Notes: a model not told the origin generated them from the letters alone. Counted from the stretch's first letter, positions 2,182 through 25,725 are shown. The stretch: DNA of 61,522 bases from Gammaproteobacteria bacterium (GCA_024686195.1 JAIBDO010000001.1:1-61522), one strand, 5' to 3'. Translations and numbers: made by a program.

Positions 2182-2196
2182 TTATTACTTGCTGTC

Positions 2197-10149: not shown

Positions 10150-11037
10150 CTAATCGAAGAGGTCATCGTCCAGGGCCTGCGACAACAGTTCTATTAGCGC
10201 CCTGGCCATGGGTAGTATGGGATTGCCGGATACCCATGCCAGTCCGAGCTGCTGGGTAACGGTCGGATTGACTAATTGTTTGGCGCGTGTGCCCGGCAAT
10301 TCATTGAAGCGTTTTGGAACAATGGTTGCCAGATCTCCAGCCATGACATGAAAGGCCAGTTGGAAAATCGAATTCGATTCGAGTTGTGGTCTTGGTTTGC
10401 ACTCCACGGTGGCAAAGGCCGCGTCTATCATCTGACGTTCGCGCATCGCTGGTGACAGCAGGCAAAGCGGCAGGTTGGCTGCTTCGGCCCAGGTTACCGT
10501 CGGTTGATCGTCCAGCCAGTCGTTATCGGGCAGCAACAGGTGCAAGGGTTCTTCATACAGGGCAAGAGTTTCAAGCCGGGAGTCGGTGAGCTGTTCAAGG
10601 TCGGTGAAACCAACATCCAGCTCGAAGTTTTTCAGCGCAAGTGTCAGCTGATCGATGCCCATAAATTGAATGTCGACCTGCACGACTGGGTATTCCTTCT
10701 GGAACAGACGCGCCACAATCGGCAGCATCGGCGAACTGGTAGGCATTGCGCCGATTCTCAGGCGGCCGTGCAGATTCTTCTTCATGATCGCCAGCTCTTC
10801 GAGCATCGCCGAGCGATCAGATAGCAGTCGCTTCGCCCATTCTACGACACGCAAACCTTCGTTGGTGAATCCCTGGAATTTCTGGTCACGCAGGATGATC
10901 GGAACGCCGAGCTCCTCTTCCAGCTTTTTGATCGCACTGGACAGGCTTGGTTGAGACACGAAGCAACGTTCAGCGGCACGGCTGAAGTGTCCTTCCTGCT
11001 CGAGTGCGATTAAATACTGGAATTGGCGCAGAAACAT
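10150..11037 (-). CDS. LysR-family transcriptional regulator
   Basis: 295 aa with wHTH LRQFQYLIALEQEGHFSRAAERCFVSQPSLSSAIKKLEEELG. Divergent from the TauE/GcvT-like/PanB-like genes. Confidence 0.9.
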   Translation of the reverse strand: MFLRQFQYLIALEQEGHFSRAAERCFVSQPSLSSAIKKLEEELGVPIILRDQKFQGFTNEGLRVVEWAKRLLSDRSAMLEELAIMKKNLHGRLRIGAMPTSSPMLPIVARLFQKEYPVVQVDIQFMGIDQLTLALKNFELDVGFTDLEQLTDSRLETLALYEEPLHLLLPDNDWLDDQPTVTWAEAANLPLCLLSPAMRERQMIDAAFATVECKPRPQLESNSIFQLAFHVMAGDLATIVPKRFNELPGTRAKQLVNPTVTQQLGLAWVSGNPILPMARALIELLSQALDDDLFD

Positions 11038-11143
11038 GATTGCCCTGAGTAATCAGCTAGGTGCCTATGTTACATTAGTTTGTTGCCGGAATGCTGCTGC
11101 TTAGGTGCCGGTTTTTCGAATTTTTTGTCGCGGATGACTGTTG

Positions 11144-11893
11144 ATGTCGATAACCCTGATTTTAATCTGCCTTATTGTCGGTGTGCTGATCGGTGCAGTG
11201 GGTATTGGTGGCGTGCTGCTGGTGCCCTCACTCAACCTGATTGCCGGCATCGATGTGCATGAGGCCGTGCCCGCCTGCACACTCAGTTACCTGGCAACTG
11301 GGGTCATTGGTGTCATCGTCTATGCGCGCCACGGTTCGATACAATGGCCAAAGGTCTTCTGGCTTTGCCTGGGGGCCATACCGGCGGCATTTCTGGGTTC
11401 GATCTCACTGCTCAGTATCCCTTCGATCGTCGTGATGTCCCTGATTGCCTTGCTGATGATCGTTAGCGGTATTGACGCTCTGATCAAAGCTTATCGAAAA
11501 TCCTCTGACGAGCAGCCGAAGCGCCAGTTAAGCCCGTTGCAGTTTATCGTAATCGGTTTTATCACCGGATTCGGCTCGGCCATAACGGGCACGGGTGGCC
11601 CACTAATTCTCGTCCCGCTCATCATCTTTCTCGGCTTGCCTGTTCTCACCGCGATCGGCCTCAGTCAGGCCATTCAGCTGCCGATCGCGGCGTTTGCCAG
11701 TACCGGTAACTGGATGTCCGGAAACCTGAATTTTGAACTGGCCCTGGTGATTGCGGCGGTGTTAGTGGTCGGTTCGTTCGCTGGTGCGCTACTCATACAT
11801 CGGTTGCCGGCCGAACCGATCCGCAAGATGATTGCCTTCCTGCTGGTTTTTGTCGGTGCCGGTATCGGTATCCAGCAGCTATTCCAGCTGTAG
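11144..11893 (+). CDS. TauE/SafE-family (DUF81) membrane exporter, sulfite-exporter type
   Basis: About 249 aa, multi-TM and Gly-rich, with the internal duplication typical of TauE/SafE. The track starts at TTG 11141; ATG is at 11144. Confidence 0.85.
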   Translation: MSITLILICLIVGVLIGAVGIGGVLLVPSLNLIAGIDVHEAVPACTLSYLATGVIGVIVYARHGSIQWPKVFWLCLGAIPAAFLGSISLLSIPSIVVMSLIALLMIVSGIDALIKAYRKSSDEQPKRQLSPLQFIVIGFITGFGSAITGTGGPLILVPLIIFLGLPVLTAIGLSQAIQLPIAAFASTGNWMSGNLNFELALVIAAVLVVGSFAGALLIHRLPAEPIRKMIAFLLVFVGAGIGIQQLFQL

Positions 11894-11904
11894 GTCCTGT
11901 CGCA

Positions 11905-12918
11905 GTGTTATCGCTGGCGGATCTGGTTCGAGACTATGGCGACCCCCATGCAGAGGCAATGTGCTGTCGGCAGGATTGCGCGCTGTTTGATTTTTCCTTC
12001 GTTTACCGGATACGGGTCTCGGGCCGGAATGCGATCGCAAGGATCGAACAGTTCCAGCCACGAACCGTCAGCGATATGTCGATCGGGCAGATACGTTACA
12101 GTGTCAAACGCAACGCACAGGGCAGGGTGCGATCTGATTTGACGCTATGGCGCTACGCTGAGGACGTCTTCGAGATCATGAGCGGCTGTGCCGAAGATGT
12201 AAGCGATCTGCAGGCTCAGGCGGGCGAGGAGTTCATTCTGCAGAACCTGAGTGAGAGTACCGCTATTCTCTCATTGCAGGGGCCGAACACATTGGCACAG
12301 CTAGCCTGCTTCATGGATGTTACCGAGATCAGTACTCTGCCTTATTTTCACTTTGTCAGGGCACAAATTGGCGAACTACCCTGTCTGATCGGGCGCCTGG
12401 GTTACTCTGGTGAAGCAGGATTTGAGATATTGGTAGATCAGTCTGCTAGAGACTGGTTGTGGGATTTGTTGTCCACCAGGTTTCCACCGGCCGGTTTTGC
12501 CGCGATCGATATCCTGCGAATCGAAGCAGGTTTCTTCCTGTTTACCAATGAATGTCGAATTTCTCCGTCGATTGGCGAGCTCGGTTTGTCGGCTCTGCTT
12601 GGGGACAGGAAGGGAAGTCCGGAAATCAAACTGGTTGCCTTCGAAGGGAACTGTCATCACACACCGAATCCGGTCTTGTGGCAACCGACCAGTTCTGAGA
12701 TTCGACGCCCTGATTCCGGGGAGATAATGATCACTTCGGCCTGTTTCAGTCCACTGTTTAATCGCGTGATTGGACTGGGTTTTGTTAAGTTCGGCCAGGC
12801 AAGTGACGCCATTATCGATCCCAAACGCAAATTTTCCGACGTTAAAATTTGCTCGCTTCCACCCTACGACCCGCATAAAACAAGGCCTCGAAAGGCATGG
12901 AAGGCCGACACAAGGTGA
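11905..12918 (+). CDS. GcvT-family (aminomethyltransferase-like) folate-binding protein
   Basis: 337 aa with a GTG start 11 nt after the TauE stop. GcvT-like pattern: ...AEAMCCRQDCALFDFSFVYRIRVSGRNA..., LGYSGEAGFEI, DILRIEAGF. Confidence 0.75.
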   Translation: MLSLADLVRDYGDPHAEAMCCRQDCALFDFSFVYRIRVSGRNAIARIEQFQPRTVSDMSIGQIRYSVKRNAQGRVRSDLTLWRYAEDVFEIMSGCAEDVSDLQAQAGEEFILQNLSESTAILSLQGPNTLAQLACFMDVTEISTLPYFHFVRAQIGELPCLIGRLGYSGEAGFEILVDQSARDWLWDLLSTRFPPAGFAAIDILRIEAGFFLFTNECRISPSIGELGLSALLGDRKGSPEIKLVAFEGNCHHTPNPVLWQPTSSEIRRPDSGEIMITSACFSPLFNRVIGLGFVKFGQASDAIIDPKRKFSDVKICSLPPYDPHKTRPRKAWKADTR

Positions 12919-13033
12919 AAGCTATCACCCGATAAAGAGAAGCTCTTTGACAGTTTTTCACGGCCCGGCTTAGTATCTCCGGGCTGCAAAATTGACTTTT
13001 GCAATAATAAAATCAACCACCCACGAGGGAGTC

Positions 13034-13912
13034 ATGTCAGAAGAAACGCCTAGACGAAAGAAAGTAACGATACGTGAATTGCAGCGCAAGATGCGTGATG
13101 ACGAGCAGATTGTGCAGATGGCGATTTACGATTACAGAAGCGCAGTAATCGCAGATCGGCTGGGTATCGACATTCTATGTGTCTCCGATACGGGCGGAAT
13201 GATTTTATTCGGTCATCAGTCAACCGTCACCGTGAGCTTTGACGAAGTCATGATGATGTCGAAGGCTATTGATCGCGGCAGCAAGTACGGCCTTAGAATG
13301 GTCGATATGCCTTACTGGAGCTTTCATGTCTCGCCCGAGCAAGCGGTAGAAAACGCCGGCAAGTTCGTGCATCAGGCAAATGCTGAAGTGATGAAGTGCG
13401 AAGGCAATCAACACCACGCGAAGAATATTGAAGCCATCGTCAAGGCCGGCATTCCGGTGCAGGGGCATATCGGTATTACGCCCATGCGCATGCCGCAGCT
13501 GGGCGGGTTCATCGCCCAGGGTAAAACCTCAGATCGTGCCAAGGAACTCATTGATGACGCCTGGGCAATGGTAGATGCGGGATGTTTTTCTATCATGTGT
13601 GAAGTTACCACCGAGGAAGTTTGCGAATATCTGGCCGAAACATTGCCGGTGCCGGTGATCAGCCTTGGAGCAGGAAACAAGGCCCACGGTGTGCACATTA
13701 TAACTTCCGATTTATTGCATCTGTATGAAGAACATGTTCCACGGCACTCGAAAATTTATACCGACCTCATTCCAATCATGGAAGACGTTTTTATTCGCTA
13801 CCGCGACGAAGTAAGAGAGCGAGTGTATCCGGGACCCGAACACACGGTCTATATGCCACCTGAAGAGCTAAAGAAATTTGCAGAGGCGATGGACTGGAAG
13901 TCAAAACTGTAA
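13034..13912 (+). CDS. 3-methyl-2-oxobutanoate hydroxymethyltransferase (PanB) family paralog
   Basis: Colinear with my memory of E. coli PanB. Equivalents of the GDSLGM, VKIEGG and LECVP catalytic segments are present (SDTGGM, MKCEGN, MCEVT), with C-terminal VYPGPEH. ATG 13034 follows GAGGGAG; the track gives TTG 12992. Confidence 0.8.
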   Translation: MSEETPRRKKVTIRELQRKMRDDEQIVQMAIYDYRSAVIADRLGIDILCVSDTGGMILFGHQSTVTVSFDEVMMMSKAIDRGSKYGLRMVDMPYWSFHVSPEQAVENAGKFVHQANAEVMKCEGNQHHAKNIEAIVKAGIPVQGHIGITPMRMPQLGGFIAQGKTSDRAKELIDDAWAMVDAGCFSIMCEVTTEEVCEYLAETLPVPVISLGAGNKAHGVHIITSDLLHLYEEHVPRHSKIYTDLIPIMEDVFIRYRDEVRERVYPGPEHTVYMPPEELKKFAEAMDWKSKL

Positions 13913-13947
13913 GACCTGCAAACTGGATATTCCAGTCTTACCGGCAG

Positions 13948-13990
13948 TAGACCCGGCCATCACACTAGTAAGGCGGGTCTATTGTTTTTA
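13948..13990 (+). terminator. Rho-independent terminator candidate after the PanB paralog
   Basis: TAGACCCGGCC-(13 nt)-GGCGGGTCTA forms a 10-bp stem with one bulged G, followed by TTGTTTTT. Confidence 0.55.
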
Positions 13991-14040
13991 TATTAACGAG
14001 TTGTTTGCAGTTAGAAACGTACGCAGGAGTTTAAATTAAG

Positions 14041-15336
14041 ATGCCAGCCAGAAATCATAAGCAGTGGAGTGCCAAACCCGATCTAGAACTCGGGGAGTGG
14101 GTCGATAGTCGGATTTATTCTGACGAAGAGATATTCGAGGAAGAGCTGGACAAACTCTGGAAAAAATCCTGGATAGCACTTTGCCATGAATCGGAACTCC
14201 CGGAACCCTATGATTTCCGCACCGGGATTATCGCACGTGAGCCGGTTATCATGGTTCGCGGACCGGATAATAAAGTGCGCGCTTTTCTGAACGTTTGTCC
14301 ACACCGTGGAATGACGATTGAGCGCCGGCCCTCTGGCAGCTTCGCGCCGGCTCAGCCGTCAGGTAACCCGAAACACATGACCTGTTTATTCCATGCCTGG
14401 CAGTTTGACATGAAAGGCAACTGTGTTGACATACCGCGCCAGAAAGAGGGCTACCAGGATCGCCTCGACAAATCTTCCCAGGGTCTTCGGGCTTTGCGTT
14501 GTGAAGTCAAATACGGTGGTTTTGTCTGGGTCTGCCTTGATGATCACACGGAGTTTAACGTCGAAACCTGGGCCGCTGGTGCGATGGATTGCATCAAGGA
14601 TTCACTCGATGCCGAGCCGCTCGAACTGATTCACTACCACAAGGCGATCATCGATTGTAATTACAAACTGTGGCACGACACCAATAGTGAGTTCTATCAC
14701 GATTACATGCACTATCACAATCGCATCACCGGCTTCAACGACGACTATTTTCAGCGTGAGTGCTCGGCTTATGACAATGGCCACGTCAATGTTGGCACCT
14801 TCACCGTGAACTATGAAGAGTATGATGTTGCGGAAGATCGCGGCACCCTGTCATTCCCTAATCTACCCCCCGATAACTGGTACATGGTCGACATGTTTCC
14901 GGGATTGAACTTCAACCTGCGTGGTTCCGTGGTGCGCATGGACTTGATGACGCCGCTGAGCGCCAACCAGGTGATGATCGAATTCCGTGGTTTCGGGCTG
15001 AAAAGTGATTCGCCTGAAGATCGTGCGCATCGTATCCAGCATCACAATTCAATCTGGGGCCCACTGGGCCGTAACCTGCATGAAGACCTCATTGGTGTGG
15101 CCGGCCAGGGTACGACAATGACACCTAAATCAGAGCCGCGTCGTATTTTGCACGGTCGTCACGAGGGTGCTTACATACACGACGAAATCGGTATGCGTCA
15201 CTTTTACGAATCATGGGGTAAGAAGATGGACCGGTTGCCCAGTGATCCCGAGCAGAAATACAAAGCCGGCAAGGTAATGGGACCGGAAATGCCGCCCGCG
15301 AAGGGCTTGTCTACTTTCGCTGGCAAAGGTGCTTAA
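14041..15336 (+). CDS. msmA: Rieske non-heme-iron oxygenase alpha subunit, methanesulfonate monooxygenase hydroxylase large subunit-like
   Basis: 431 aa. Rieske ligands are C86-P-H88 and C115-L-F-H118, separated by 26 residues (nt 14296-14394). There is a mononuclear-iron His/Asp region (EFYHDYMHYH). AGGAG lies upstream of the ATG. The symbol rests on the X26 spacer and the operon context. Confidence 0.75.
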   Translation: MPARNHKQWSAKPDLELGEWVDSRIYSDEEIFEEELDKLWKKSWIALCHESELPEPYDFRTGIIAREPVIMVRGPDNKVRAFLNVCPHRGMTIERRPSGSFAPAQPSGNPKHMTCLFHAWQFDMKGNCVDIPRQKEGYQDRLDKSSQGLRALRCEVKYGGFVWVCLDDHTEFNVETWAAGAMDCIKDSLDAEPLELIHYHKAIIDCNYKLWHDTNSEFYHDYMHYHNRITGFNDDYFQRECSAYDNGHVNVGTFTVNYEEYDVAEDRGTLSFPNLPPDNWYMVDMFPGLNFNLRGSVVRMDLMTPLSANQVMIEFRGFGLKSDSPEDRAHRIQHHNSIWGPLGRNLHEDLIGVAGQGTTMTPKSEPRRILHGRHEGAYIHDEIGMRHFYESWGKKMDRLPSDPEQKYKAGKVMGPEMPPAKGLSTFAGKGA

Positions 15337-15485
15337 AGGCGGGTTTGCAGCGGAGAAACTGAACACGGACAACGGGGCAAGAGCTGATGGAGCAACGCCC
15401 TCGTCCAGTGTGATGCCTGCAGCATCGTAAGTTTGATTTAGCAACGCGCCTGCATGGCGTGAGAATATTATTGGAGAAGCTAGGA

Positions 15486-15983
15486 ATGAATGTAGAGGAA
15501 CAGCATATCAAATCGCTGGTCAGGGAAACGATATATGCGGCTGCCATGTTTCTGGACGATCAGAAATGGAATGACTGGATCGATCAGTGCGATGAAAGCT
15601 TCCACTATTCGGTGGTTACCTACAGCCATGAAGTGCGTAAGGATCTGACCTATCTGCTGATGAGCCACAAGGAAATGCATCCCTACTTTGATTTGCTACC
15701 AAAACACAATACGGATCATTCGCCGTTGCGGCGTCATGCCAGCATTTATACGGTAGATGTATCTGAAGACGGTAAAACGGCCGAGGCAGTGACGTCTTTC
15801 ATCATGACCCAGGAAATGATTGATGGCATCAGTGCGCCACTTTATTCAGGCGAAAATCGGTTATACCTGACCGGAAAATATTATGATAAGTTCAAAATTG
15901 ATGGTGAATCAGTGAAATTTACCGAACGGGTTGCACGGGTATACACCCGGCGGTTCGACAAAGGCACTCATTGGGTTTTCTGA
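15486..15983 (+). CDS. msmB: Oxygenase beta (small, NTF2-like) subunit
   Basis: About 165 aa directly after the alpha subunit, with the size and pattern of ring-hydroxylating-dioxygenase beta subunits. ATG 15486 follows GGAG; the track gives GTG 15459. Confidence 0.7.
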   Translation: MNVEEQHIKSLVRETIYAAAMFLDDQKWNDWIDQCDESFHYSVVTYSHEVRKDLTYLLMSHKEMHPYFDLLPKHNTDHSPLRRHASIYTVDVSEDGKTAEAVTSFIMTQEMIDGISAPLYSGENRLYLTGKYYDKFKIDGESVKFTERVARVYTRRFDKGTHWVF

Positions 15984-16093
15984 TTGGCATCTAACCGAAC
16001 TTTAGCCGTCATTGCAGGTTAGGTAAGCTCGAATGGTTGTCGGATGTTTCTCGGCTGCTAGACGAGTCAATAATAAATAACAGGAGTAGAGAG

Positions 16094-16474
16094 TTGAGTT
16101 GGGAAAAAATCTGCGGAGTTTCCGATGTTCCGGAAAACGCTCTGGAAAAGTTTGAAGTAAATGGCATTGAGCTAGTCGTCGCCAATTATGGCGGTGGTTT
16201 CCGTGCCTTTCCCCCGCGCTGTCCACACATGGAAGAAGCGCTTTGCGACTCTGCCGTGTTGTTCGACGGAATGCTGACCTGTACCAAGCACCTTTGGCAG
16301 TGGGATATGGGGTCAGGGGAAAAAACCGGAATAGCCGAAAAGGAGTTGCTGTTTTATGACGTTAAACAGGAAGGTGGCGATCTTTATGCGCAGGTCGACG
16401 AGGCGCTCGTCTATGAAGACGATGACGATGAAGACGAAGACGAAGACGACGAGGATTTTTTCAATGCCGACTAA
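16094..16474 (+). CDS. msmC: Rieske-type [2Fe-2S] ferredoxin with a poly-acidic C-terminal tail
   Basis: CPHMEEALC...(17 aa)...CTKHLWQWD, with the tail YEDDDDEDEDEDDEDFFNAD. I prefer TTG 16094, preceded by AGGAG at 7 nt spacing; the track gives TTG 16037. The start is uncertain. Confidence 0.7.
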   Translation: MSWEKICGVSDVPENALEKFEVNGIELVVANYGGGFRAFPPRCPHMEEALCDSAVLFDGMLTCTKHLWQWDMGSGEKTGIAEKELLFYDVKQEGGDLYAQVDEALVYEDDDDEDEDEDDEDFFNAD

Positions 16475-16628
16475 TGCCCGTGACGCTATCGAAAACGGAA
16501 GTCGGATAAGCATAGCGTCAGAGATGGCGGGTCAATAGAGCATATTATGCGAGTGACACTGGATTTTTTTAGCGGACGTCAAGGCGGGCTTCGGTGGGTC
16601 GCAAATCGACCCTGTGACCTGGATAATC

Positions 16629-17687
16629 ATGATGACCGGTAAAACGTTGAATATCCAGGTTAATGCCAGAAACCGCGCCTATACGCTTGATGGCACCAGT
16701 GATGATAAAATCCTCAACCTTGGCTTGAGTAACGCCATCGACCTCCCCTATGAGTGTGGTAGCGGTACCTGTGGTACCTGTAAAGCACGATTAATATCGG
16801 GAGAGATCTGTGATCGGTGGCCCGAAGCACCCGGGCGCAAGTTCTTGAAGCCTAAGAAAGGTGAGTTCCTGATGTGCCAGTGCGCTGCAAAAACGGATAG
16901 CGTGATCGAAGTAGAAAGTTTTGTGCACACCATGGAGGCCGGTGCCTGTGTACCCGGGTTAATTACTGGCCGAGTCAATAGTTCAAAACTTTTGACCCCG
17001 GATGTGATGTCACTGCAGATAACGATGGATCAGACATTCGATTTCGATGCGGGCCAGTTTATGCTGGTGCAGTTCCCCGAAGTAGTGGGTTTTCGTGGTT
17101 GGTCGATGGTGAATTATGAGCGTCATGCAAAAACCCTGGATTTTGTCATAAAGAAAAAACCTGACGGAGTACTGTCCGAATGGCTGTTTGGTAACAATTG
17201 TGAAGGTGTGGAAGTTGAACTCTACGGGCCATTGGGAAATGCCACCTTTTATTCGAGACTGGCCAAAAACATTCTTTGCATCGCCGGTGGTAGCGGCATT
17301 GCAGGCATCATGTCCATTCTTTCGAGGGCGGCACAGGACGGCTATTTCTCGCAGTATAGCGGGGATGTGTTTTTCGGTGTGCGCACCATGAAAGACGCAT
17401 TCTTTCTCGATGAACTAGCGGCTTTCCGCGCCGAGTGTGGTGAAAAACTGAATATCGTGATCGCTCTATCAGATGAAGACGTCCCCGCCTCTGCGCAGAT
17501 CGATTATCCGCAACTGGCGTTTGACAATGGGTTTGTTCACGAGGTGGCCGGTCGCCATATGGAAGATCGCTATCAGAATGTGAGAGCCTATCTTGCCGGC
17601 CCCCCACCTTTGGTGAATGGCTCGATAGGTATGCTACTGCGGGCGCGAGTGACTACCGATAATATCCGCTATGACAAGTTCAGTTAA
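16629..17687 (+). CDS. msmD: Oxygenase reductase: plant-type [2Fe-2S] ferredoxin domain fused to an FAD/NAD(P)H ferredoxin-reductase domain
   Basis: N-terminal CGSGTCGTCK...C cluster, followed by an FNR-like fold (RGWSMVNY, GGSGIAGIMS). ATG 16629; the track gives GTG 16614. Confidence 0.8.
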   Translation: MMTGKTLNIQVNARNRAYTLDGTSDDKILNLGLSNAIDLPYECGSGTCGTCKARLISGEICDRWPEAPGRKFLKPKKGEFLMCQCAAKTDSVIEVESFVHTMEAGACVPGLITGRVNSSKLLTPDVMSLQITMDQTFDFDAGQFMLVQFPEVVGFRGWSMVNYERHAKTLDFVIKKKPDGVLSEWLFGNNCEGVEVELYGPLGNATFYSRLAKNILCIAGGSGIAGIMSILSRAAQDGYFSQYSGDVFFGVRTMKDAFFLDELAAFRAECGEKLNIVIALSDEDVPASAQIDYPQLAFDNGFVHEVAGRHMEDRYQNVRAYLAGPPPLVNGSIGMLLRARVTTDNIRYDKFS

Positions 17688-17697
17688 GAGTGTCGTC

Positions 17698-18429
17698 ATG
17701 AGCAAGAATATACACATATGTAAGCTGAGTGATATTCCCGCCAACGGAATCAAGGATTTCGTGCTTGAGGGCGGCGAAAAAGTGCTTATCGCTAACTTCA
17801 GCGAGAATTATTATGCCTATAACGGAAATTGCCCTCATCAGGGTACATGCCTTGCCGAAGGTTTTTTCGACGGTGCGGTACTGACCTGTAACAAACATTT
17901 ATGGCAGTGGGATATCACCACCGGAAAGCCCATCGGCCTTGCCGAAGCCCCACTGGAAAGCTATCAGCTCGAGATTGAAGACGGCGAGATATATGTTCGC
18001 AAGGCCAATGCGTTGAAGATGGCCGAGTTATTCAGGGATATTTCAACTAGCACGCAGGACTTGCTGGTGAAACTCACCCGGCGAGAAGAATATGAAGTTG
18101 GTAGCGTTCTATACGATCTGGGTGATCTGACAGACGATCTCTACATTCTCGAATCGGGTCGGGTCGAGTTCGAACTTGGTCGAGACGAACGTACCAGTGC
18201 GGCCGGGTTTATCTTGCGTAAAGGCGAGGTTTTCGGATGGGCCGCACTACTTGAGCATCAACCGATACGTATCGCCCAGGCTGTTTGTGTGGAAAAATCG
18301 GTTCTGTTGCGTCTCAATGGCGAGGAAGTTGTTAAGGTATTAGCAACCGATCCGGCTTCTGGCTACCTGGTCATGCGCCAGTTAGCTACTTTGATCACCA
18401 GGCACTTCACCTCGTCGAGCGAGCAATGA
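17698..18429 (+). CDS. Rieske [2Fe-2S] ferredoxin (MsmC paralog) fused to a C-terminal cyclic-nucleotide-binding-like domain
   Basis: The N-terminal about 105 aa align with the preceding ferredoxin (CPHQGTCL...LTCNKHLWQWD). The C-terminal about 130 aa have the Crp/cNMP beta-roll pattern (VLYDLGDLTDDLYILESGRVEF...RKGEVFGWAALLEHQPIRIAQAVCVEKSVLLRL). ATG 17698 lies just after the reductase stop. Confidence 0.8.
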   Translation: MSKNIHICKLSDIPANGIKDFVLEGGEKVLIANFSENYYAYNGNCPHQGTCLAEGFFDGAVLTCNKHLWQWDITTGKPIGLAEAPLESYQLEIEDGEIYVRKANALKMAELFRDISTSTQDLLVKLTRREEYEVGSVLYDLGDLTDDLYILESGRVEFELGRDERTSAAGFILRKGEVFGWAALLEHQPIRIAQAVCVEKSVLLRLNGEEVVKVLATDPASGYLVMRQLATLITRHFTSSSEQ

Positions 18430-18600
18430 TGAGAGGAGAGCGGCGATTAATAACCGAGTATGAATAACTGAGGATGATTGCAACTCAATGTAAGGAGGTC
18501 ATGATTAAAAAGTAAGGCACCAATCTTTAACCATAAAAAGTTGTTTAGCGCGTTTAGACAATTGACAATTTTAATAATCGAAAATAGTGAGGAGTTATAA

Positions 18601-19755
18601 ATGTTATCTAAATTAAAAAGTATCCAACATCGGGTCACTACCGGTTTCGCTGCGTTGATTGTAGCGTTAGGCCTTACGGCGCCCGGATTAGTGTCCACCG
18701 CATCTGCCGCTGAAATTGATTTTGGCAAGGTCGGAGATCCGATCAATCTTGTTGTAGGTTATCAGCCATATTACACAGAAGCCTGGTCCGGTGTGGTCAT
18801 GAAGAGCCTGAAGCTGTACGAAAAGTACTTGCCGAAAGGGTCGACTGTTGAATTTCAGATTGGCCTGCAAGGCGGTATTATCGTTAACGCCATGCTCGCA
18901 GGAAAGCAACACATCGGCTACATGGGTGACATGCCGGCCATCGTCGCCACCACCAAGGATCGCGTAGCTGACATTCGTATCGTTGCGACCGCAGGTCTTG
19001 GTTTTGATCAGTGCAATAACATGCTGGTCAGAAATGATGCACCGCAGTTTGCCAATGCCGGCGAAGCCATCCAGTGGATGGATGGGAAGGTCGTAGCAGT
19101 ACCGAAAGGCGCCTGTACTGACCGCTTTGCACTGGCTGTTTTCGAGAAAGAAAACATCAAGCCGGCCAGCTACCTGAACCAGAACATCGAAGTAATCACC
19201 AGTGGCTTCCGCGCTGGCAAGCTCGATGCGGCTGCGATCTGGGAACCAACGGCATCACGTCTGGTTGAGGAAGGACTGGCACGTAAAGTTGCTTCTGGCG
19301 CCTCGGTTGATGAGAATGATGGTGGTTTTATCGACATGCGTGGTGACCTGATTGACCAACGTCCCGACGTTGTCAAAGCCTGGCTGAATGCCGAACTCGA
19401 CGCGCAATTGTTCATGGCTGATCCCAAAAACACCATGGCAATCGTGAAGATGGCTGAAGAGCAAACCACTGGCTTCGAATCCAAGGTGCTTTGGAAAGCT
19501 ATGGTTGGTACCACACCGGTACTCCAGGGCGGCACACCGGTTCGAAATGAACTGGCTTTTGCTATTACCCCGAAGGCCCAGGCGCTGATCGACAAAGCAA
19601 CTGTCTTTCTGCACTCCATCAAGACGATCAAAGTGGATACCCTGCGTGACAACGCGATCGAGCGTAGCTTCACCGAAGAAATCCTGAAGGAGCGTGGTCT
19701 GTCAGCACCCGTTGGCAAGATGTGGGCTCAGCCAGATTCTGCTTACGGTATGTAG
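18601..19755 (+). CDS. ABC transporter periplasmic substrate-binding protein, NitT/TauT (NMT1/SsuA-like) family; msmE-like
   Basis: 384 aa with a signal peptide ending ...STASA-AE. GAGGAG precedes the ATG. Sits beside cognate permease and ATPase genes. Confidence 0.85.
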   Translation: MLSKLKSIQHRVTTGFAALIVALGLTAPGLVSTASAAEIDFGKVGDPINLVVGYQPYYTEAWSGVVMKSLKLYEKYLPKGSTVEFQIGLQGGIIVNAMLAGKQHIGYMGDMPAIVATTKDRVADIRIVATAGLGFDQCNNMLVRNDAPQFANAGEAIQWMDGKVVAVPKGACTDRFALAVFEKENIKPASYLNQNIEVITSGFRAGKLDAAAIWEPTASRLVEEGLARKVASGASVDENDGGFIDMRGDLIDQRPDVVKAWLNAELDAQLFMADPKNTMAIVKMAEEQTTGFESKVLWKAMVGTTPVLQGGTPVRNELAFAITPKAQALIDKATVFLHSIKTIKVDTLRDNAIERSFTEEILKERGLSAPVGKMWAQPDSAYGM

Positions 19756-19788
19756 TGCCTGACATAACTTTGTTAGTTCTGTAGAGGA

Positions 19789-19820
19789 CCCCCCGACAGG
19801 AAAATGTCCCGGTCGGGGGG
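19789..19820 (+). promoter_or_regulatory. Strong intra-operon RNA hairpin after the binding-protein gene
   Basis: CCCCCCGAC-(14 nt)-GTCGGGGGG, a 9-bp G/C stem with no downstream T-tract. Confidence 0.5.
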
Positions 19821-19933
19821 CCATCTCTACGCATAGAGCAACAGTTAGTAAATAAATGTAGTTATACCTGGGTGTGCATTCGGCATGGTTGTGCGTGTGC
19901 AGGATACCCGGAACATAAATAGAGGAAGCAGGT

Positions 19934-21286
19934 ATGCCTGACCCGGCAAACAATTCGGAAATTCTAAGCGCCTTGAAAAGCGCGATGCCCTTTCAGATGG
20001 TACCCGGTAATCTGATGCAGGAGATTGCTGCAATCTGTACGCAGGAATCATATGAAGCAGGTGAGAAAATATATGACCTGGGCGCGGTAGCAGACGATGT
20101 TTTCATCGTCGCTTACGGAAGCGTGCGACATACCCTGTCGGCGGATACAGACGCGAGCAAGCATGAGAAAACCATGCGCAGCGGTGATGTTTTCGGCTGG
20201 GCCGCTGTTCTTGAAGGTCAGAGTGTACGTATGGCGGCGACTGCCAGCATCGAGCGTACCCTGGTGCTACGCATCAACGGCAAAAAACTGATCAAATTGT
20301 TTGAGAGCGATCCCGCGGTCGGTGACGTTGTCATGACGCGATTCGCGACCTTGATTAATAAAGAATTCTACGTGCCCAGATCGATTGCCGATCAGGTGCC
20401 GGGCTTCAAGCAAGCCCTCAATGCAAGCAATCTTCAGGGCTCTGAAGTGACCACCATGGCGTTAACCGTCTATCGGATTTCGACCTGGCTGAAAAGCCCG
20501 CGACCGTACCTGATGTTGATCGGTTTTGCACTGTTCCTCAGCTTCTGGATGCTGTCGGTCGAGATTTGGAAATTACCGCGCTTTGTCGATATGCCTGGGC
20601 CGACCGAGGTGTTTACCGAGTGGTTCAGCGAAGATCCCTATTACGGTCTGTCGATCTACACCCCCGAGTATTACAAGCACATTGGCATAAGCCTGCAACG
20701 TATTGCCTTCGCCTTCTTTCTGGCGACTGGGCTGGGTGTGCCACTGGGGCTGTTCCTCGGTTGGTCGAAGAAATTCCGTGAATATATTTTCCCCCTGTTC
20801 GAGGTGTTTCGGCCAATTCCGGTTCTCGCCTGGGTACCACTGGCGATTATCATGTTCAGTGGCTCTGAAACTCCGGTTATTTTCCTGACTTTCCTGGCCT
20901 CATTCTTCGCTACAACGCTGAACACCATGCTGGGCGTAGAATCGATCGACGAGTCCTACAGTCGGGCTGCTCGATGTCTGGGTGCCAGTCGCTGGCAGAC
21001 ATTCGTTCATGTGGTGATCCCCGGCGCTATGCCCTACATTTTTACCGGCCTGCAAATATCCATCGGTGTCGCCTGGTTCTCGCTGGTGGCGGGAGAGATG
21101 GTGTCCGGTCAGTACGGCCTGGGATATGTCATTAACACCGCCTACATGATGATCGAATATCCGAAAATTATCATCGGCATGATCACCCTTGGCGTAGTCG
21201 GCTACATCACCAGCGCCATGGTGCGCATGATGGGTGATTACCTCATGCAGTGGCGGGTGCGTGAACTGGCCCTCGGAGATAACTAA
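19934..21286 (+). CDS. ABC transporter permease (NitT/TauT family) with an N-terminal cyclic-nucleotide-binding-like domain
   Basis: 450 aa. Residues about 12-145 have the cNMP/Crp-like beta-roll (EKIYDLGAVADDVFIVAYGSVRH...SGDVFGWAAVLEGQSVRMAATASIERTLVLRI). The remainder is a 6-TM BPD_transp_1-type permease. Confidence 0.85.
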   Translation: MPDPANNSEILSALKSAMPFQMVPGNLMQEIAAICTQESYEAGEKIYDLGAVADDVFIVAYGSVRHTLSADTDASKHEKTMRSGDVFGWAAVLEGQSVRMAATASIERTLVLRINGKKLIKLFESDPAVGDVVMTRFATLINKEFYVPRSIADQVPGFKQALNASNLQGSEVTTMALTVYRISTWLKSPRPYLMLIGFALFLSFWMLSVEIWKLPRFVDMPGPTEVFTEWFSEDPYYGLSIYTPEYYKHIGISLQRIAFAFFLATGLGVPLGLFLGWSKKFREYIFPLFEVFRPIPVLAWVPLAIIMFSGSETPVIFLTFLASFFATTLNTMLGVESIDESYSRAARCLGASRWQTFVHVVIPGAMPYIFTGLQISIGVAWFSLVAGEMVSGQYGLGYVINTAYMMIEYPKIIIGMITLGVVGYITSAMVRMMGDYLMQWRVRELALGDN

Positions 21287-22149
21287 TGAGTGCAGTAATA
21301 GATGAAAATTTAGGTTCGCTGGCGGACGTCACCGACGGCGCAATCAGCATTAAGGATGTGGTCAAAATATACGACCCGGATGGGGCCGCGGTGATGGCGG
21401 TCGACCATTGTTCGATCGAAATTCCAGCTGGGGAAATCTGTATGATCGTCGGCCCGTCGGGTTGCGGCAAGACAACCCTGCTGAATGCCATTGCCGGTTT
21501 CCACGGCATCACTTCCGGCAGTATCCACCTCGATGGCGAACTGTTGTGCGGCCCTGAAAAGCCACAGGCAGAGCCCGGTTCTGATCGCATTGTAGTGTTC
21601 CAGAACGGCGCACTATTCCCCTGGAAGACCAATCTCGACAACGTTGCTTTCGGGCCGATGATGGCTGGTAAGCTGAGCAAGGAGGAAATCTACGATAAGG
21701 CGCGCAGCATGATGGCAGACGCGGGCCTGAGCGGCAACGAGAACAACTATCCGGGCGAAATATCCTCGGGCTTGCGGCGTCGGGTCGAAATAGTCCGCGC
21801 ACTCATGAACGATCCCAAAGTATTGCTATTCGATGAGCCTTATCGCGCGCTTGATTCTCTCACCAAGTCGGTTATGCATGAAGCCTTGCTGGAAATCTAC
21901 TATCGCAACAAGGTCACGATTTTCTTTATAACTCACGATCTCGAAGAGGCGATCTTCCTTGGCCACCGGTTGATCATCATGTCTTCCCGACCCTGTAAGC
22001 CAAAGAAAATTGTAGAAGTGGATATACCCCATCCACGCGATTACAGCGTGCTGACTTCTCCCCGTTTTCGGGAGCTTATGAACGAAGCCAAAGACGTCGT
22101 GCATGAGGAGGCTACCAAAGCCTTCGAAGCCGGCGAAAAAGAAGGATAG
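21286..22149 (+). CDS. ABC transporter ATP-binding protein (NitT/TauT family)
   Basis: Walker A GPSGCGKTT, signature ISSGLRRR, Walker B LLFDEP. Its start shares 1 nt with the permease stop. Confidence 0.9.
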   Translation: MSAVIDENLGSLADVTDGAISIKDVVKIYDPDGAAVMAVDHCSIEIPAGEICMIVGPSGCGKTTLLNAIAGFHGITSGSIHLDGELLCGPEKPQAEPGSDRIVVFQNGALFPWKTNLDNVAFGPMMAGKLSKEEIYDKARSMMADAGLSGNENNYPGEISSGLRRRVEIVRALMNDPKVLLFDEPYRALDSLTKSVMHEALLEIYYRNKVTIFFITHDLEEAIFLGHRLIIMSSRPCKPKKIVEVDIPHPRDYSVLTSPRFRELMNEAKDVVHEEATKAFEAGEKEG

Positions 22150-22156
22150 AACAGAG

Positions 22157-22981
22157 ATGAGTGTAAGCAATTTTTCAGACAAGCTGTTCAGTAAGGCAGC
22201 GATGCGTGGCATCTTCGCGATCGTCGTTTTCGTGCTGATATGGGAAGTCGGTGCTCGTTCCGAGCAATGGTTTGGTTATCGTTTCCCGTTTATTGGATTG
22301 GTACCCCCGCCCACCGATGTATTCGTCAGCTGGGGAGGATTGATTGCGGATCCCAGTTACTGGCAAAGCTGGTACATGAGTTTCCTGCGTGTTTTCGGAG
22401 GATTCGCGGCGGCCATGGTCATCGGAATCCCGATGGGTTTGCTAATGGCGGTCAATAAAGCCAGTTACGGCATCATTTTTCCGTCTTTTGAAGTGCTGCG
22501 TCCTATTCCACCGCTAGCCTGGGTGCCGGCGTCGATCATCTTCTGGCCTACCCAGGAATTGTCGATTGCCTTCGTCACTTTCCTCGGCGCGTTTTACACC
22601 ATTGTTATCAATGTGCTGGGTGGCGCTAAATCGATCAACAAGCAGTTTTTGCAGGCCGCGCAATCTATGGGAGCGTCACAGTGGGACATCTTCCGTCGCA
22701 TCGTTCTCCCTGCAACATTGCCATCGATTGTGGTTGGTTCTGCAGTTGGTATGGGAATTACCTGGGAGGTTGTGGTCGCCGCAGAAATGATCTCGGGTGG
22801 TGGCAGCTCCGGTGGTGGTGCCGGTGGCGGGCTCGGATTTTTTATCTGGAGCTCTTATGTGGGTGGATCCTACGAACAGATCATTGTCGGCATGATCAGT
22901 ATCGGCATCGCCGGTTATATAAGCAGCGAGCTATTGCGGCAACTCGGTGGTTTGCTAACTCCCTGGCTGAAAACACGGTAA
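22157..22981 (+). CDS. ABC transporter permease (NitT/TauT family), second membrane subunit
   Basis: Permease fold with a Gly-rich insertion EMISGGGSSGGGAGGGLGFF. I use ATG 22157 (MSVSNFSDK...). The track start at 22103 would overlap the ATPase gene by 47 nt. Confidence 0.85.
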   Translation: MSVSNFSDKLFSKAAMRGIFAIVVFVLIWEVGARSEQWFGYRFPFIGLVPPPTDVFVSWGGLIADPSYWQSWYMSFLRVFGGFAAAMVIGIPMGLLMAVNKASYGIIFPSFEVLRPIPPLAWVPASIIFWPTQELSIAFVTFLGAFYTIVINVLGGAKSINKQFLQAAQSMGASQWDIFRRIVLPATLPSIVVGSAVGMGITWEVVVAAEMISGGGSSGGGAGGGLGFFIWSSYVGGSYEQIIVGMISIGIAGYISSELLRQLGGLLTPWLKTR

Positions 22982-22986
22982 CCCAG

Positions 22987-23874
22987 ATGAATACAACTAC
23001 TCAAGATTCGGTTAAGCCAAAAACGGCTTCCTTCGCACAAGCCAGCAGCGAAATTGTGGCGACGAATATTTCCAAGTCCTATGGCGCAGGTCCTTTTGCC
23101 AAGCAGGTTGTCGATAACTGTTCGTTTACCATCGAAAGCAATAAATTGACCGTGATGATCGGGCCATCGGGTTGCGGCAAAAGTACTCTCATCCAGCTGA
23201 TTGCGGGTTTTGAGAGTCCTGATAGCGGTACGATTACGATGAACGGCAATCCGATCACGGGTCCGGGAAAGGATCGTCTGGTACTGTTCCAGGAGTCTGC
23301 ACTTTTCCCGTGGATGACTACCTATGACAACATCATGTATGGTCCTCGAGCGCGCGGTGAAGATAACGCCGAATCGGTAGAGTTGGCCGAGTTTCTGCTG
23401 GCCAAGGTCGGTCTCGAGGCTTTCAGGGACAAGTACCCGCAACAGCTCTCGGGCGGCATGCAGCGTCGAGCAGAACTGGCACGGGCAATGATCAACAAGC
23501 CCGAAGTGATGATCCTTGATGAGCCGTTTCGCGGTCTGGATAACATGTCCAAGGAGTTGATGTGGGAATACTATGCAGCACTCTACGAAGAAGACAAAAA
23601 TACCAACTTTTTCGTGACCACGGACATTGACGAAGCCATCTTTCTCGCCGATCGCCTGTTGATTATGACTAATCTCCCAACCAACTGCCGTTCCGTTATC
23701 GAGATCGATATACCCCGCCCGCGTCGGATCGACGATATCGGTAACAACGCTCGTGCGAATGATATCAAGAAAGAGGTGATGACCTTGCTACACGAGGAAG
23801 CGATGAAATCCTTCTCGGGTGGCAGTAAGGCCGCGGCAGATTTCCTCGATGCTTATTCCAAGCGCGCCGGTTGA
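22987..23874 (+). CDS. ABC transporter ATP-binding protein (NitT/TauT family), second ATPase
   Basis: Walker A GPSGCGKST, signature LSGGMQRR, Walker B MILDEP. The true start is ATG 22987 (MNTTTQDS...). The track's extension back to 22681 is an out-of-frame read through the permease gene. Confidence 0.9.
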   Translation: MNTTTQDSVKPKTASFAQASSEIVATNISKSYGAGPFAKQVVDNCSFTIESNKLTVMIGPSGCGKSTLIQLIAGFESPDSGTITMNGNPITGPGKDRLVLFQESALFPWMTTYDNIMYGPRARGEDNAESVELAEFLLAKVGLEAFRDKYPQQLSGGMQRRAELARAMINKPEVMILDEPFRGLDNMSKELMWEYYAALYEEDKNTNFFVTTDIDEAIFLADRLLIMTNLPTNCRSVIEIDIPRPRRIDDIGNNARANDIKKEVMTLLHEEAMKSFSGGSKAAADFLDAYSKRAG

Positions 23875-23912
23875 GTCAACCTGCCACTGTTAAACAATTG
23901 GTTTAAATCGAA

Positions 23913-24116
23913 ATGCCTGATTGGTTACTCTATCGTCCCACCATTATTGGTCTAGCCGTAGTGGGGGGAATCCTGTCAATAGTGGCATCTTCCTGTCAAT
24001 CGCGGGAATTGCTTCCTGAGCCCGCGATCGGATGGTTGAACAAGGCCTCCTACGCATTCATGATGGTCAGCGTCACCTTGTTTATCTCTGCCGGATTGCT
24101 GGGTGTCGATCCATAA
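23913..24116 (+). CDS. Possible small two-TM membrane protein
   Basis: 67-aa ORF with two hydrophobic helices, 38 nt after the ATPase gene. No clear Shine-Dalgarno sequence. Confidence 0.3.
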   Translation: MPDWLLYRPTIIGLAVVGGILSIVASSCQSRELLPEPAIGWLNKASYAFMMVSVTLFISAGLLGVDP

Positions 24117-25626: not shown

Positions 25627-25725
25627 GTTGATTCCTATACGATGGTGAGCAATCCGTGGTTGCAGCTACCCTGGTGCTGGCGGGTAATAAAACTGTTGTT
25701 TTGACTGCGTCAGGCGAGGATTAAG

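What the first reader, a model, noticed from the sequence alone, without database searches (positions are those of the whole stretch)
11144..24116. Candidate ligand-gated methanesulfonate uptake, oxidation and product-disposal island
Every gene from 11144 to 24116 is on the + strand. The order is:
- TauE/SafE exporter, GcvT-like folate protein and PanB paralog, then a terminator
- oxygenase alpha, beta, Rieske ferredoxin and reductase
- an extra ferredoxin fused to a sensor domain
- binding protein, sensor-fused permease, ATPase, permease, ATPase and a small membrane ORF

A LysR gene is divergent at 10150-11037. If the oxygenase is methanesulfonate monooxygenase (see the next finding), its established products are formaldehyde and sulfite, and each has a plausible handler encoded here.

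The unexplained part is that two paralogous cNMP-binding-like domains are attached to the importer permease and to a duplicated electron-transfer protein. That would allow one small molecule to gate both substrate entry and electron delivery post-translationally. I am not aware of this architecture being described for msm clusters or for Rieske oxygenase systems in general.
Basis: partly seen in the sequence, partly recalled or inferred. Interest (0 to 1): 0.8.

Follow-up and report, generated by a model that had tools for sequence, protein, structure and literature searches.

The report
Methanesulfonate gene cluster with sensor-like fusions
This is a recognisable bacterial gene cluster for importing and oxidising methanesulfonate, and its unusual feature is real: two related cyclic-nucleotide-receptor-like domains, altered so that cAMP/cGMP binding is unlikely, are fused to the importer and to an electron-carrier protein, an arrangement common in genomes that I found in no paper.

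Summary
All 14 + strand genes and the divergent LysR gene are present with the stated domains.

The gene content is already known. LysR / TauE / GcvT-like / PanB-like next to msmABCD and an msmEFGH-type ABC importer was published for Filomicrobium in 2015. The alpha subunit carries the MsmA hallmark, a Rieske CXH-X26-CXXH motif.

The two fusions are the new part:
- **Both are real.** Rieske ferredoxin + CNB domain and CNB domain + permease both pass Pfam's cut-offs. The fold of the ferredoxin fusion is confirmed.
- **They are paralogous.** The two domains are 37% identical.
- **They are widespread.** More than 1,000 relatives of each fusion were found.
- **They co-occur.** Counts across loci were 31 both, 11 neither, 7 + 2 single.
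- **The "extra" ferredoxin is not extra elsewhere.** In the large MsmA-like clade with a 17-residue spacer it is the only ferredoxin. The window is a mosaic that also keeps MsmC.

The domains form a distinct "FGW" subfamily that also occurs as standalone ~150-aa proteins in these clusters. Compared with CRP, Glu72 is always Trp, Ser83 is hydrophobic and Arg82 is kept. cAMP/cGMP is therefore an unlikely ligand.

The mechanism is not shown. My best guess is a shared anionic ligand, either substrate or sulfite. The main rival is pairing of the two domains. I rate this a new variant of a known kind, interest about 0.6.

The parts
10150..11037 (-). LysR-family regulator, divergent from the cluster
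   Evidence: Pfam HTH_1 + LysR_substrate. The same divergent position is seen in L005, L007, L013, L016-L023 and in Filomicrobium (PMC4433239).
11141..11893 (+). TauE/SafE-family membrane protein, putative sulfite exporter
   Evidence: Pfam TauE, 135.9 bits. Conserved next to msm clusters.
11905..12918 (+). GcvT-like folate-binding protein. Inferred role: capture of the C1 unit on tetrahydrofolate.
   Evidence: Pfam GCV_T, 150.9 bits. NCBIfam GcvT below cut-off, and it also matches the C-terminal part of TMAO demethylase.
12992..13912 (+). PanB-like ketopantoate hydroxymethyltransferase paralogue
   Evidence: Pfam Pantoate_transf, 265 bits. 84-95% identical across canonical msm loci.
13943..13986 (+). 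Hairpin followed by a T-run. Candidate intrinsic terminator or attenuator between panB-like and msmA.
   Evidence: RNA fold -21.9 kcal/mol, z -4.46, 0 of 200 shuffles as good. Sequence.
14041..15336 (+). MsmA-type oxygenase alpha subunit with Rieske motif CPH-X26-CLFH
   Evidence: Translation. Pfam Rieske + Ring_hydroxyl_A. Spacer count and clade placement.
15459..15983 (+). MsmB-type oxygenase beta subunit
   Evidence: Weak Ring_hydroxyl_B match. Positional orthologue in all loci.
16037..16474 (+). MsmC-type standalone Rieske ferredoxin with an acidic C-terminal tail. Start codon uncertain.
   Evidence: Pfam Rieske, 44.9 bits. Translation.
16614..17687 (+). MsmD-type reductase (plant-type 2Fe-2S, FAD, NAD)
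   Evidence: Pfam Fer2 + FAD_binding_6 + NAD_binding_1. 72-74% identical to reductases of X17 clusters, but only 36-39% to those of unfused canonical clusters.
17698..18429 (+). Rieske ferredoxin fused to an FGW-type CNB domain. Rieske part about 17698-18030, CNB part about 18034-18429. The ORF could also start at 17671.
   Evidence: Pfam. 1251 homologues. AF2 model pLDDT 83. Foldseek matches CarAc ferredoxin and CRP/GlxR.
18601..19755 (+). MsmE-type periplasmic binding protein (SsuA/NMT1 family)
   Evidence: Pfam NMT1_2. NCBIfam SsuA_fam, 93 bits, below cut-off.
19934..21286 (+). FGW-type CNB domain (about 19934-20380) fused to the N-terminus of an MsmF-type NitT/TauT permease
   Evidence: Pfam cNMP_binding 39 bits + BPD_transp_1 99 bits. 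119 of the top 120 homologues carry both domains. The CNB part of the AF2 model has pLDDT 77-88.
21286..22149 (+). ABC ATPase (MsmG-type)
   Evidence: Pfam ABC_tran.
22103..22981 (+). Second permease (MsmH-type). True start probably near 22157.
   Evidence: Pfam BPD_transp_1. Homologues are 272-277 aa.
22987..23874 (+). Second ABC ATPase
   Evidence: Pfam ABC_tran. In-frame ATG at 22987. Homologues are 280-305 aa.
23913..24116 (+). Conserved 67-aa protein with two hydrophobic segments
   Evidence: Translation. Homologous ORFs in the same position in many loci.

Best explanation
The region is a methanesulfonate (MSA) catabolic cluster of the known msm type. It contains an MsmABCD-type three-component Rieske monooxygenase and an MsmEFGH-type ABC importer with a second ATPase. 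It also contains TauE, GcvT-like and PanB-like genes for the sulfite and formaldehyde products.

The cluster is a mosaic. msmABC and the importer core are of the canonical X26 type. The reductase and the ferredoxin-CNB gene that follows it resemble those of the X17 MsmA-like clusters of Burkholderiales and sulfur oxidisers.

Two cytoplasmic domains of a distinct "FGW" branch of the cyclic-nucleotide-binding (CNB) fold are attached. One is on a Rieske ferredoxin and one is on the importer permease.

I think they most likely act as a shared input module. Both would sense the same small, probably anionic, non-cyclic-nucleotide ligand, either the sulfonate substrate or the sulfite product. Each would pass the signal on through its own class-specific C-helix. 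Import and electron delivery to the oxygenase would then rise and fall together, which would limit uncoupled NADH oxidation and build-up of the toxic products.

What is shown: gene identities, domain folds, paralogy, motif changes, co-occurrence and mosaic ancestry. What is inferred: ligand binding, ligand identity and the direction of regulation.
For: **MSA cluster:**
- The X26 Rieske spacer is present.
- The gene order matches the Filomicrobium segment.
- MsmA is 65-96% identical to canonical-clade loci, including Hyphomicrobium and Methyloligella.
- C1-tetrahydrofolate and sulfite genes accompany related clusters.

**Fusions:**
- Both pass Pfam gathering scores.
- The fold of the ferredoxin fusion is confirmed: CRP/GlxR at about 2 A over 136 residues, CarAc ferredoxin at 1.6 A.
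- Both families are large. 120 of the top 120 ferredoxin-fusion homologues and 119 of the top 120 permease-fusion homologues carry both domains.
- In 7 of 7 contexts seeded from the fusion, it lies directly after the reductase of an MsmA-like cluster. In 5 of the 6 contexts where the whole cluster is visible it is the only ferredoxin; L087 also keeps MsmC.

**Shared input:**
- The most conserved block across ferredoxin-fused, permease-fused and standalone members is the phosphate-binding cassette, G-[ED]-V-F-G-W-A-A-L...R-[IL]-A.
- The C-helix is conserved class by class.
- The two fusions co-occur: 31 both, 11 neither, 7 and 2 single.
- Four helices precede the EAA loop, which places the permease's CNB domain in the cytoplasm.

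**Mosaic ancestry:** identity table and tree.
Against: - No ligand is known for any FGW-type domain, and no structure of one is solved.
- A conserved cassette could be structural rather than ligand-binding.
- Seven loci have the ferredoxin fusion with an unfused permease, so the two are not strictly interdependent.
- The co-occurrence counts are not corrected for shared ancestry.
- Canonical clusters work without either domain (Filomicrobium and Methylosulfonomonas, PMC4433239), so the domains are accessory.
- The window also keeps MsmC, so the fusion may not carry the main electron flux here.
- Identity to an experimentally characterised MsmA was not measured.
Confidence: 0.4

Rival explanations
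1. Docking module. The CNB domain on the ferredoxin pairs through its C-helix with the single CNB domain on the heterodimeric importer, or with a standalone CNB protein. This tethers the electron carrier, and so the oxygenase, to the site of substrate entry. No small ligand is needed, as in the CNB-homology domains of KCNH channels (that comparison is from my own knowledge).
For: - CRP-type CNB domains dimerise through the C-helix, and the model has a long C-terminal helix at residues 219-238.
- The importer has two different permeases, so it carries only one CNB domain, which leaves that domain unpaired.
- The two fusions co-occur strongly.
- Some permeases carry two tandem CNB domains, which suggests the working unit is a pair.
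- Standalone paralogues exist in the same clusters.
Against: - Loci with tandem-CNB permeases still have the ferredoxin fusion, so there is no clean domain swap.
- Seven loci have the ferredoxin fusion with an unfused permease and mostly no visible standalone partner.
- The block conserved across all classes is the ligand cassette, not the C-helix.
- No complex was modelled.
Confidence: 0.25
2. Genuine second-messenger control. The domains bind cAMP or cGMP, or another nucleotide, and place MSA use under catabolite-type control at the protein level.
For: - Both domains pass the Pfam cNMP_binding threshold.
- The closest structural matches are cAMP-binding CRP/GlxR proteins.
- The phosphate-binding arginine is kept in 97-100% of members.
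Against: - The CRP Glu72 equivalent, which contacts the ribose 2'-OH, is Trp in 100% of 96 domains.
- The Ser83 equivalent, which contacts the phosphate, is Ile, Leu or Met.
- Canonical FGE...PR[ST]A proteins form a separate, lower-scoring set in the library search.
Confidence: 0.1
3. The fusion in this window is a redundant passenger. The reductase and ferredoxin-CNB pair arrived by recombination from an X17-type cluster. MsmC does the work, and the CNB domains have little or no regulatory function in this organism.
For: - MsmC is retained.
- The reductase ancestry is mosaic.
- Canonical clusters lack both domains.
Against: - The same arrangement is kept at 82-96% protein identity in several independent assemblies (L005, L015, L087).
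- The Rieske ligands and CNB motifs are intact.
- The fusion is 62-98% identical across its top 120 homologues, which indicates purifying selection.
Confidence: 0.12
4. The oxygenase acts on a different small sulfonate or C1 compound, not methanesulfonate.
For: - No NCBIfam model names this protein.
- No solved or characterised homologue was compared directly.
- The X26 spacer also occurs in a second clade at about 52% identity, so it is not unique to the canonical clade.
Against: - The window's alpha subunit falls in the canonical clade.
- Synteny with a proven MSA degrader is complete.
- The neighbouring genes fit a C1 unit plus sulfite as products.
Confidence: 0.1

Closest known systems
msmABCD / msmEFGH methanesulfonate monooxygenase and importer clusters (Methylosulfonomonas methylovora M2; Filomicrobium strains Y and W; PMC4433239)
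   Same: - Alpha subunit with the CXH-X26-CXXH Rieske motif.
- Beta subunit, Rieske ferredoxin and Fer2/FAD/NAD reductase.
- SsuA-like binding protein, two permeases and ATPase(s).
- In Filomicrobium, also LysR, TauE, GcvT-like and PanB-like genes and the extra ATPase.
   Different: - All genes here are co-directional, whereas the published operons are divergent.
- There is a fifth gene, a Rieske ferredoxin fused to a CNB domain.
- MsmF carries about 150 extra N-terminal residues forming a CNB domain. The Filomicrobium MsmF gene is 888 bp.
- The reductase is of the X17-cluster type.
X17 "MsmA-like" clusters of Burkholderiales, Sulfuriferula, Thiobacillus and Methylibium (function not shown experimentally)
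   Same: - Same module: reductase, Rieske-CNB ferredoxin, binding protein, CNB-permease, ATPase, permease, ATPase, small membrane protein.
- Identity to the window: 64-74% for the reductase, 64-72% for the fusion.
   Different: - Alpha subunit only about 50% identical, with a 17-residue Rieske spacer.
- No standalone MsmC.
- Different accessory genes (Amidohydro_2, GNAT, FDH, SorAB-like).
CRP/FNR-type and PKA/PKG-type cyclic-nucleotide-binding domains (Pfam PF00027)
   Same: - Beta-roll plus C-helix fold.
- Cassette length and the arginine are kept.
- Pfam gathering score passed.
   Different: - No DNA-binding or kinase-regulating partner domain.
- The cassette reads FGW..R[ILM]A in place of FGE..R[ST]A.
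- Fused to a ferredoxin or an ABC permease.
ABC importers with cytoplasmic regulatory domains that cause trans-inhibition (MetNI C2 domain, ModBC, OpuA CBS domains; from my own knowledge)
   Same: A cytoplasmic small-molecule-sensing domain attached to an importer would throttle uptake according to the internal state of the cell.
   Different: - In those systems the domain is at the C-terminus of the ATPase.
- Here it is at the N-terminus of one permease, belongs to the CNB fold, and has a paralogue on a redox protein.

Membership tests
Methanesulfonate monooxygenase (MsmABCD) | Alpha subunit Rieske motif CXH-X26-CXXH (PMC4433239) | tested here: met
   CPH-(26 residues)-CLFH in the translation. 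Spacer counted by script.
Methanesulfonate monooxygenase (MsmABCD) | Alpha subunit groups with the canonical MsmA clade | tested here: met
   The NJ tree places it with the X26 loci of Hyphomicrobium, Methyloligella, Njordibacter and others, at 65-96% identity against about 50% for the X17 clade. Identity to the characterised strain M2 protein was not measured.
Methanesulfonate monooxygenase (MsmABCD) | Beta subunit, Rieske-type ferredoxin and Fer2/FAD/NAD reductase encoded alongside | tested here: met
   Pfam. The beta subunit match is just below the cut-off, but its position is conserved.
Methanesulfonate monooxygenase (MsmABCD) | Converts methanesulfonate to formaldehyde and sulfite | not testable with these tools
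   Needs an enzyme assay.
MsmEFGH / NitT-TauT family ABC importer | SsuA/NMT1-type binding protein, BPD_transp_1 permeases and ABC_tran ATPase | tested here: met
   Pfam. NCBIfam SsuA_fam, TauC and SsuC matches, all below their cut-offs.
CNB fold (Pfam cNMP_binding, PF00027) | Profile match above the gathering score, and beta-roll plus C-helix fold | tested here: met
   52.9 and 39 bits against a 27.5-bit cut-off. Foldseek to CRP/GlxR, rmsd about 2 A over 136 residues, for the ferredoxin fusion. The fold of the permease copy rests on sequence and a partial model only.
Functional cAMP/cGMP receptor | Cassette residues that contact the ribose and phosphate (CRP Glu72, Arg82, Ser/Thr83) | tested here: not met
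   Glu72 is replaced by Trp in 100% of 96 domains. Ser83 is replaced by Ile, Leu or Met. Only Arg82 is kept (the CRP sequence was entered from memory).
CRP/FNR transcription factor | C-terminal helix-turn-helix DNA-binding domain | tested here: not met
   The fusion ends after the C-helix. There is no HTH Pfam match.
Rieske ferredoxin of three-component oxygenases | About 100-residue Rieske domain with CXH...CXXH ligands, and fold like CarAc or BphF | tested here: met
   C45, H47, C64 and H67 are invariant in 47 sequences. Foldseek to the carbazole dioxygenase ferredoxin, rmsd 1.5-1.7 A.

The most novel reading that the evidence does not exclude
FGW-type CNB domains are a dedicated post-translational control circuit. 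One paralogue sits on the ABC importer and one on the Rieske ferredoxin, and sometimes a third stands alone. Together they couple substrate entry to electron supply in a catabolic oxygenase system, either by sensing one metabolite such as a sulfonate or sulfite, or by physically docking the electron carrier to the transporter. This would be the first ligand- or partner-gated Rieske ferredoxin. It would also be a new way of regulating an ABC importer, through the permease rather than the ATPase.
Probability: 0.4. Interest if true: 0.8.

Novelty: new variant of a known kind. Interest (0 to 1): 0.6.

Why it matters
**Ecological context.** Methanesulfonate is a major atmospheric and marine sulfur-cycle intermediate. 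Its monooxygenase releases two toxic products, formaldehyde and sulfite.

**Regulation of Rieske oxygenases.** These enzymes are usually described as regulated at transcription. A sensor-like domain built into the electron carrier, matched by a paralogue on the importer, would point to fast protein-level coordination of uptake, reductant use and product load.

**Scale and testability.** The module occurs in hundreds of genomes, including sulfur oxidisers and methylotrophs, so one ligand-binding or interaction experiment would annotate a large and currently misnamed protein family. One source labels many members "toluene monooxygenase system ferredoxin subunit".

**The X17 clade.** The gene contexts argue that the poorly understood X17 MsmA-like clade also releases a C1 unit plus sulfite. 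This bears on using msmA as an environmental marker.

Tried and rejected
- **Consensus terminator scan.** It gave no more sites than shuffled sequence and missed the PanB-msmA hairpin because of its loop limit. Direct folding was needed.
- **Rfam scan of 9000-26500.** No riboswitch or other RNA family was found.
- **NCBIfam.** It has no MsmA model, so it gave no naming help.
- **PDB sequence searches.** There is no solved MsmA and no solved FGW-type CNB domain.
- **Full-length AF2 model of the permease fusion.** Confidence was too low (pLDDT 54, membrane part below 50) to use for a fold search or for domain packing. Only secondary structure and the CNB part were used.
- **Rosetta-stone test of the docking idea.** I asked whether permeases with two CNB domains had taken over the ferredoxin's domain. 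They had not. Both tandem domains are of the permease class, and the ferredoxin fusion is still present.
- **Four literature searches.** None found a paper on the fusions. Absence from this library is not proof of absence.
- **Genomic island in the horizontal-transfer sense.** G+C is only slightly lower (0.50-0.53 against 0.52-0.58), and no mobility genes were seen, so this was not pursued.
- **Genome scan limit.** It kept 80 of 190 relatives, so the co-occurrence counts are a sample and are not corrected for phylogeny.

Full report
**1. What is in the sequence**

| Coordinates | Gene product |
|---|---|
| 11141-11893 | TauE/SafE |
| 11905-12918 | GcvT-like protein |
| 12992-13912 | PanB-like protein |
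| 14041-15336 | Rieske oxygenase alpha subunit |
| 15459-15983 | beta subunit |
| 16037-16474 | Rieske ferredoxin |
| 16614-17687 | Fer2/FAD/NAD reductase |
| 17698-18429 | Rieske + cNMP_binding protein |
| 18601-19755 | SsuA/NMT1-type binding protein |
| 19934-21286 | cNMP_binding + BPD_transp_1 permease |
| 21286-22149 | ATPase |
| 22103-22981 | second permease |
| 22987-23874 | second ATPase (corrected start) |
| 23913-24116 | 67-aa ORF with two hydrophobic segments |

- A LysR gene lies divergently at 10150-11037.
- The terminator claimed after PanB is plausible. A hairpin at 13943-13986 folds at -21.9 kcal/mol (z -4.5) and is followed by a T-run. The consensus scan missed it.
- Rfam finds nothing in the region.

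**2. The cluster is a known kind**

- The alpha subunit has CPH-X26-CLFH. This 26-residue Rieske spacer is described as the hallmark of MsmA in every organism shown to grow on methanesulfonate (PMC4433239).
- The same paper's Table 1 for Filomicrobium strain Y lists LysR, TauE, GcvT and PanB next to msmHGFE, an extra ATPase and msmABCD.
- The "uptake, oxidation and product-disposal" content is therefore already published.
- In that segment the msmF gene is 888 bp and there is no fifth ferredoxin gene.
- No structure of an MsmA is solved, and NCBIfam has no model for it.

**3. The fusions are real, conserved and not confined to this window**

*Ferredoxin fusion*
- It has 1251 homologues. The top 120 all carry Rieske + cNMP_binding, at 62-98% identity and 241-243 aa.
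- An AlphaFold2 model built on 47 sequences has pLDDT 83.
- Its N-terminal domain matches the carbazole dioxygenase ferredoxin at about 1.6 A. Its C-terminal domain matches CRP/GlxR at about 2 A over 136 residues, including the long C-helix.

*Permease fusion*
- It also has a large family. 119 of its top 120 homologues carry both domains.
- Its full-length model is poor (pLDDT 54). The CNB part scores 77-88, and four helices precede the EAA loop, which places the CNB domain in the cytoplasm.

*Relationship between the two*
- The two window domains are 37% identical.

**4. Comparative genomics changes the reading of the "extra" ferredoxin**

- Seven contexts seeded from the fusion protein all place it directly after the reductase of an MsmA-like alpha/beta/reductase cluster, followed by a binding protein and an ABC importer.
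- In L001, L003, L085, L088 and L089 there is no other ferredoxin gene. L087 also keeps MsmC. L086 is cut off before the alpha subunit.
- A genome scan seeded with MsmA gave 80 loci. A tree of their alpha subunits shows three clades:
  - the canonical X26 clade, which contains the window;
  - a second X26 clade at about 52% identity (Roseovarius, Rhodoferax, Variovorax WS11, Achromobacter);
  - a large X17 clade.
- The fusions are the default in the X17 clade.
- In the canonical clade they occur only in the window's own sub-clade: L005 at 96%, L015 at 94%, and partly L007 at 85%. L006 has a standalone domain instead.
- L087 is an independent 576-kb contig whose fusion protein is 82% identical to the window's. 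It has the same gene order, including MsmC.
- The window's reductase is 72-74% identical to X17-cluster reductases, but only 36-39% to those of unfused canonical clusters. Its permease core is closest to the unfused canonical ones, at 84-87%.
- The window is therefore a mosaic. msmABC and the importer core are canonical. The reductase and ferredoxin-CNB pair are of the X17 type.

**5. Co-occurrence**

- Where both genes are visible, 31 loci have both fusions and 11 have neither.
- Seven loci have only the ferredoxin fusion. Two have only the permease fusion, and both of those look like misclassifications.
- These counts are not corrected for shared ancestry. The pattern nevertheless holds in at least two separate parts of the tree.

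**6. A distinct CNB subfamily**

- A third class exists: standalone ~150-aa proteins with the same motif, encoded in many of these clusters and often beside TauE.
- I aligned 46 ferredoxin-fused, 35 permease-fused and 15 standalone domains with E. coli CRP, whose sequence I entered from memory. The block conserved in all three classes is the phosphate-binding cassette, G-[ED]-V-F-G-W-A-A-L...R-[IL]-A.

| CRP residue | Role in CRP | In FGW domains |
|---|---|---|
| Glu72 | contacts ribose 2'-OH | Trp in 100% |
| Ser83 | contacts phosphate | Ile, Leu or Met |
| Arg82 | contacts phosphate | kept in 97-100% |

- The C-helix is conserved class by class.
- A search of 1.84 billion representative proteins with a profile of the two window domains separates FGW-type proteins (standalone, ferredoxin-fused and permease-fused) from canonical FGE...PR[ST]A proteins, which score lower.
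- No FGW-type domain has a solved structure.
- Some permeases carry two tandem domains of the permease class, and their loci still encode the ferredoxin fusion.

**7. Mechanism**

- *Shown:* fold, paralogy, motif replacement, cytoplasmic location, tight linkage to the reductase (a 10-nt gap or an overlap), and co-occurrence.
- *Inferred:* function.
- A cassette conserved across all classes, combined with class-specific helices, fits "same input, different outputs".
- I therefore favour a shared, probably anionic, non-nucleotide ligand that coordinates import and electron delivery (about 0.4). The candidates are the sulfonate substrate or sulfite.
- The main rival is CNB-CNB pairing that docks the ferredoxin to the importer (about 0.25). 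It is supported by the lone CNB domain on a heterodimeric importer and by the tandem variants.
- True cAMP/cGMP control is unlikely (about 0.1), given the replaced contact residues.
- A redundant-passenger reading (about 0.12) is weakened by conservation of the whole arrangement across independent assemblies.

**8. Novelty**

- Four full-text searches found no description of either fusion.
- Databases carry only automatic names, such as "toluene monooxygenase system ferredoxin subunit" and "cyclic nucleotide-binding domain-containing protein".
- The cluster is a known kind. The CNB modules are an undescribed, widespread variant.
Its interpretation is partly supported:
  - the island content is not new;
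  - the ferredoxin is not simply a duplicate;
  - gating by a ligand is plausible but untested;
  - the ligand is unlikely to be a cyclic nucleotide.

Noticed in passing
window 12992-13912; L016-L023, L011, L005: The PanB-like protein is 84-95% identical across canonical msm loci, while MsmA in the same loci is only 66-80% identical. This is unusually strong constraint for an accessory gene. It hints at a specific role in handling formaldehyde or methylene-tetrahydrofolate.
   Followed up: partly
L035:3670-4131, L056:6610-7068, L078:1785-2246, L083:3679-4137, L006:13563-14018 and others: Standalone ~150-aa FGW-type CNB proteins occur in many MsmA-like clusters, often beside TauE. Most end in a conserved LTAFAGG-like tail. 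In L006 one sits directly after the reductase, where the fusion would be.
   Followed up: partly
L085:10001-11851, L086:3939-5807 (P0164, P0171, P0154, P0162): Permease variants of 616-625 aa carry two tandem CNB domains, both of the permease class. Their clusters still encode the Rieske-CNB ferredoxin.
   Followed up: yes
L025, L028, L029, L031, L038, L039, L040, L080: A second clade of alpha subunits, about 52% identical to the window's, also has the 26-residue Rieske spacer. Some of these loci (Roseovarius, Rhodoferax) hold two alpha/beta pairs. The spacer alone therefore does not define the canonical MsmA clade.
   Followed up: partly
window 16400-16474: The standalone MsmC-type ferredoxin ends in a run of acidic residues (EDDDDEDEDEDDEDFFNAD). 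The MsmC ORFs in the other loci are shorter, at 113-136 aa.
   Followed up: no
window 508-5750 (- strand) and 5798-6688: Upstream lie a TPP-dependent enzyme, an Oxidored_FMN + Pyr_redox_2 flavoprotein, an MTTB-family methyltransferase and a second LysR gene. They look like a separate methylated-amine or betaine catabolic unit.
   Followed up: no
window 9447-9956 (-); L087:17331-17849: An OsmC-like peroxiredoxin gene sits next to the cluster in the window, and again next to the related cluster in L087. It may relate to peroxide formed by uncoupled oxygenase turnover.
   Followed up: no
L001, L003, L089 downstream of the importer: Betaproteobacterial X17 clusters are followed by an Amidohydro_2 gene. 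In L001 and L003 a GNAT acetyltransferase gene comes next. Their role is unknown.
   Followed up: no
window 24526-25626 and 26131-27033: An isocitrate/isopropylmalate-dehydrogenase-family gene and an HDOD-domain gene follow the cluster. Neither is found next to the related clusters examined.
   Followed up: no
L015, L082: The CNB-permease gene appears split into a CNB-only ORF and a short permease ORF. These are probably frameshifts in the metagenome assemblies, not real unfused genes.
   Followed up: no
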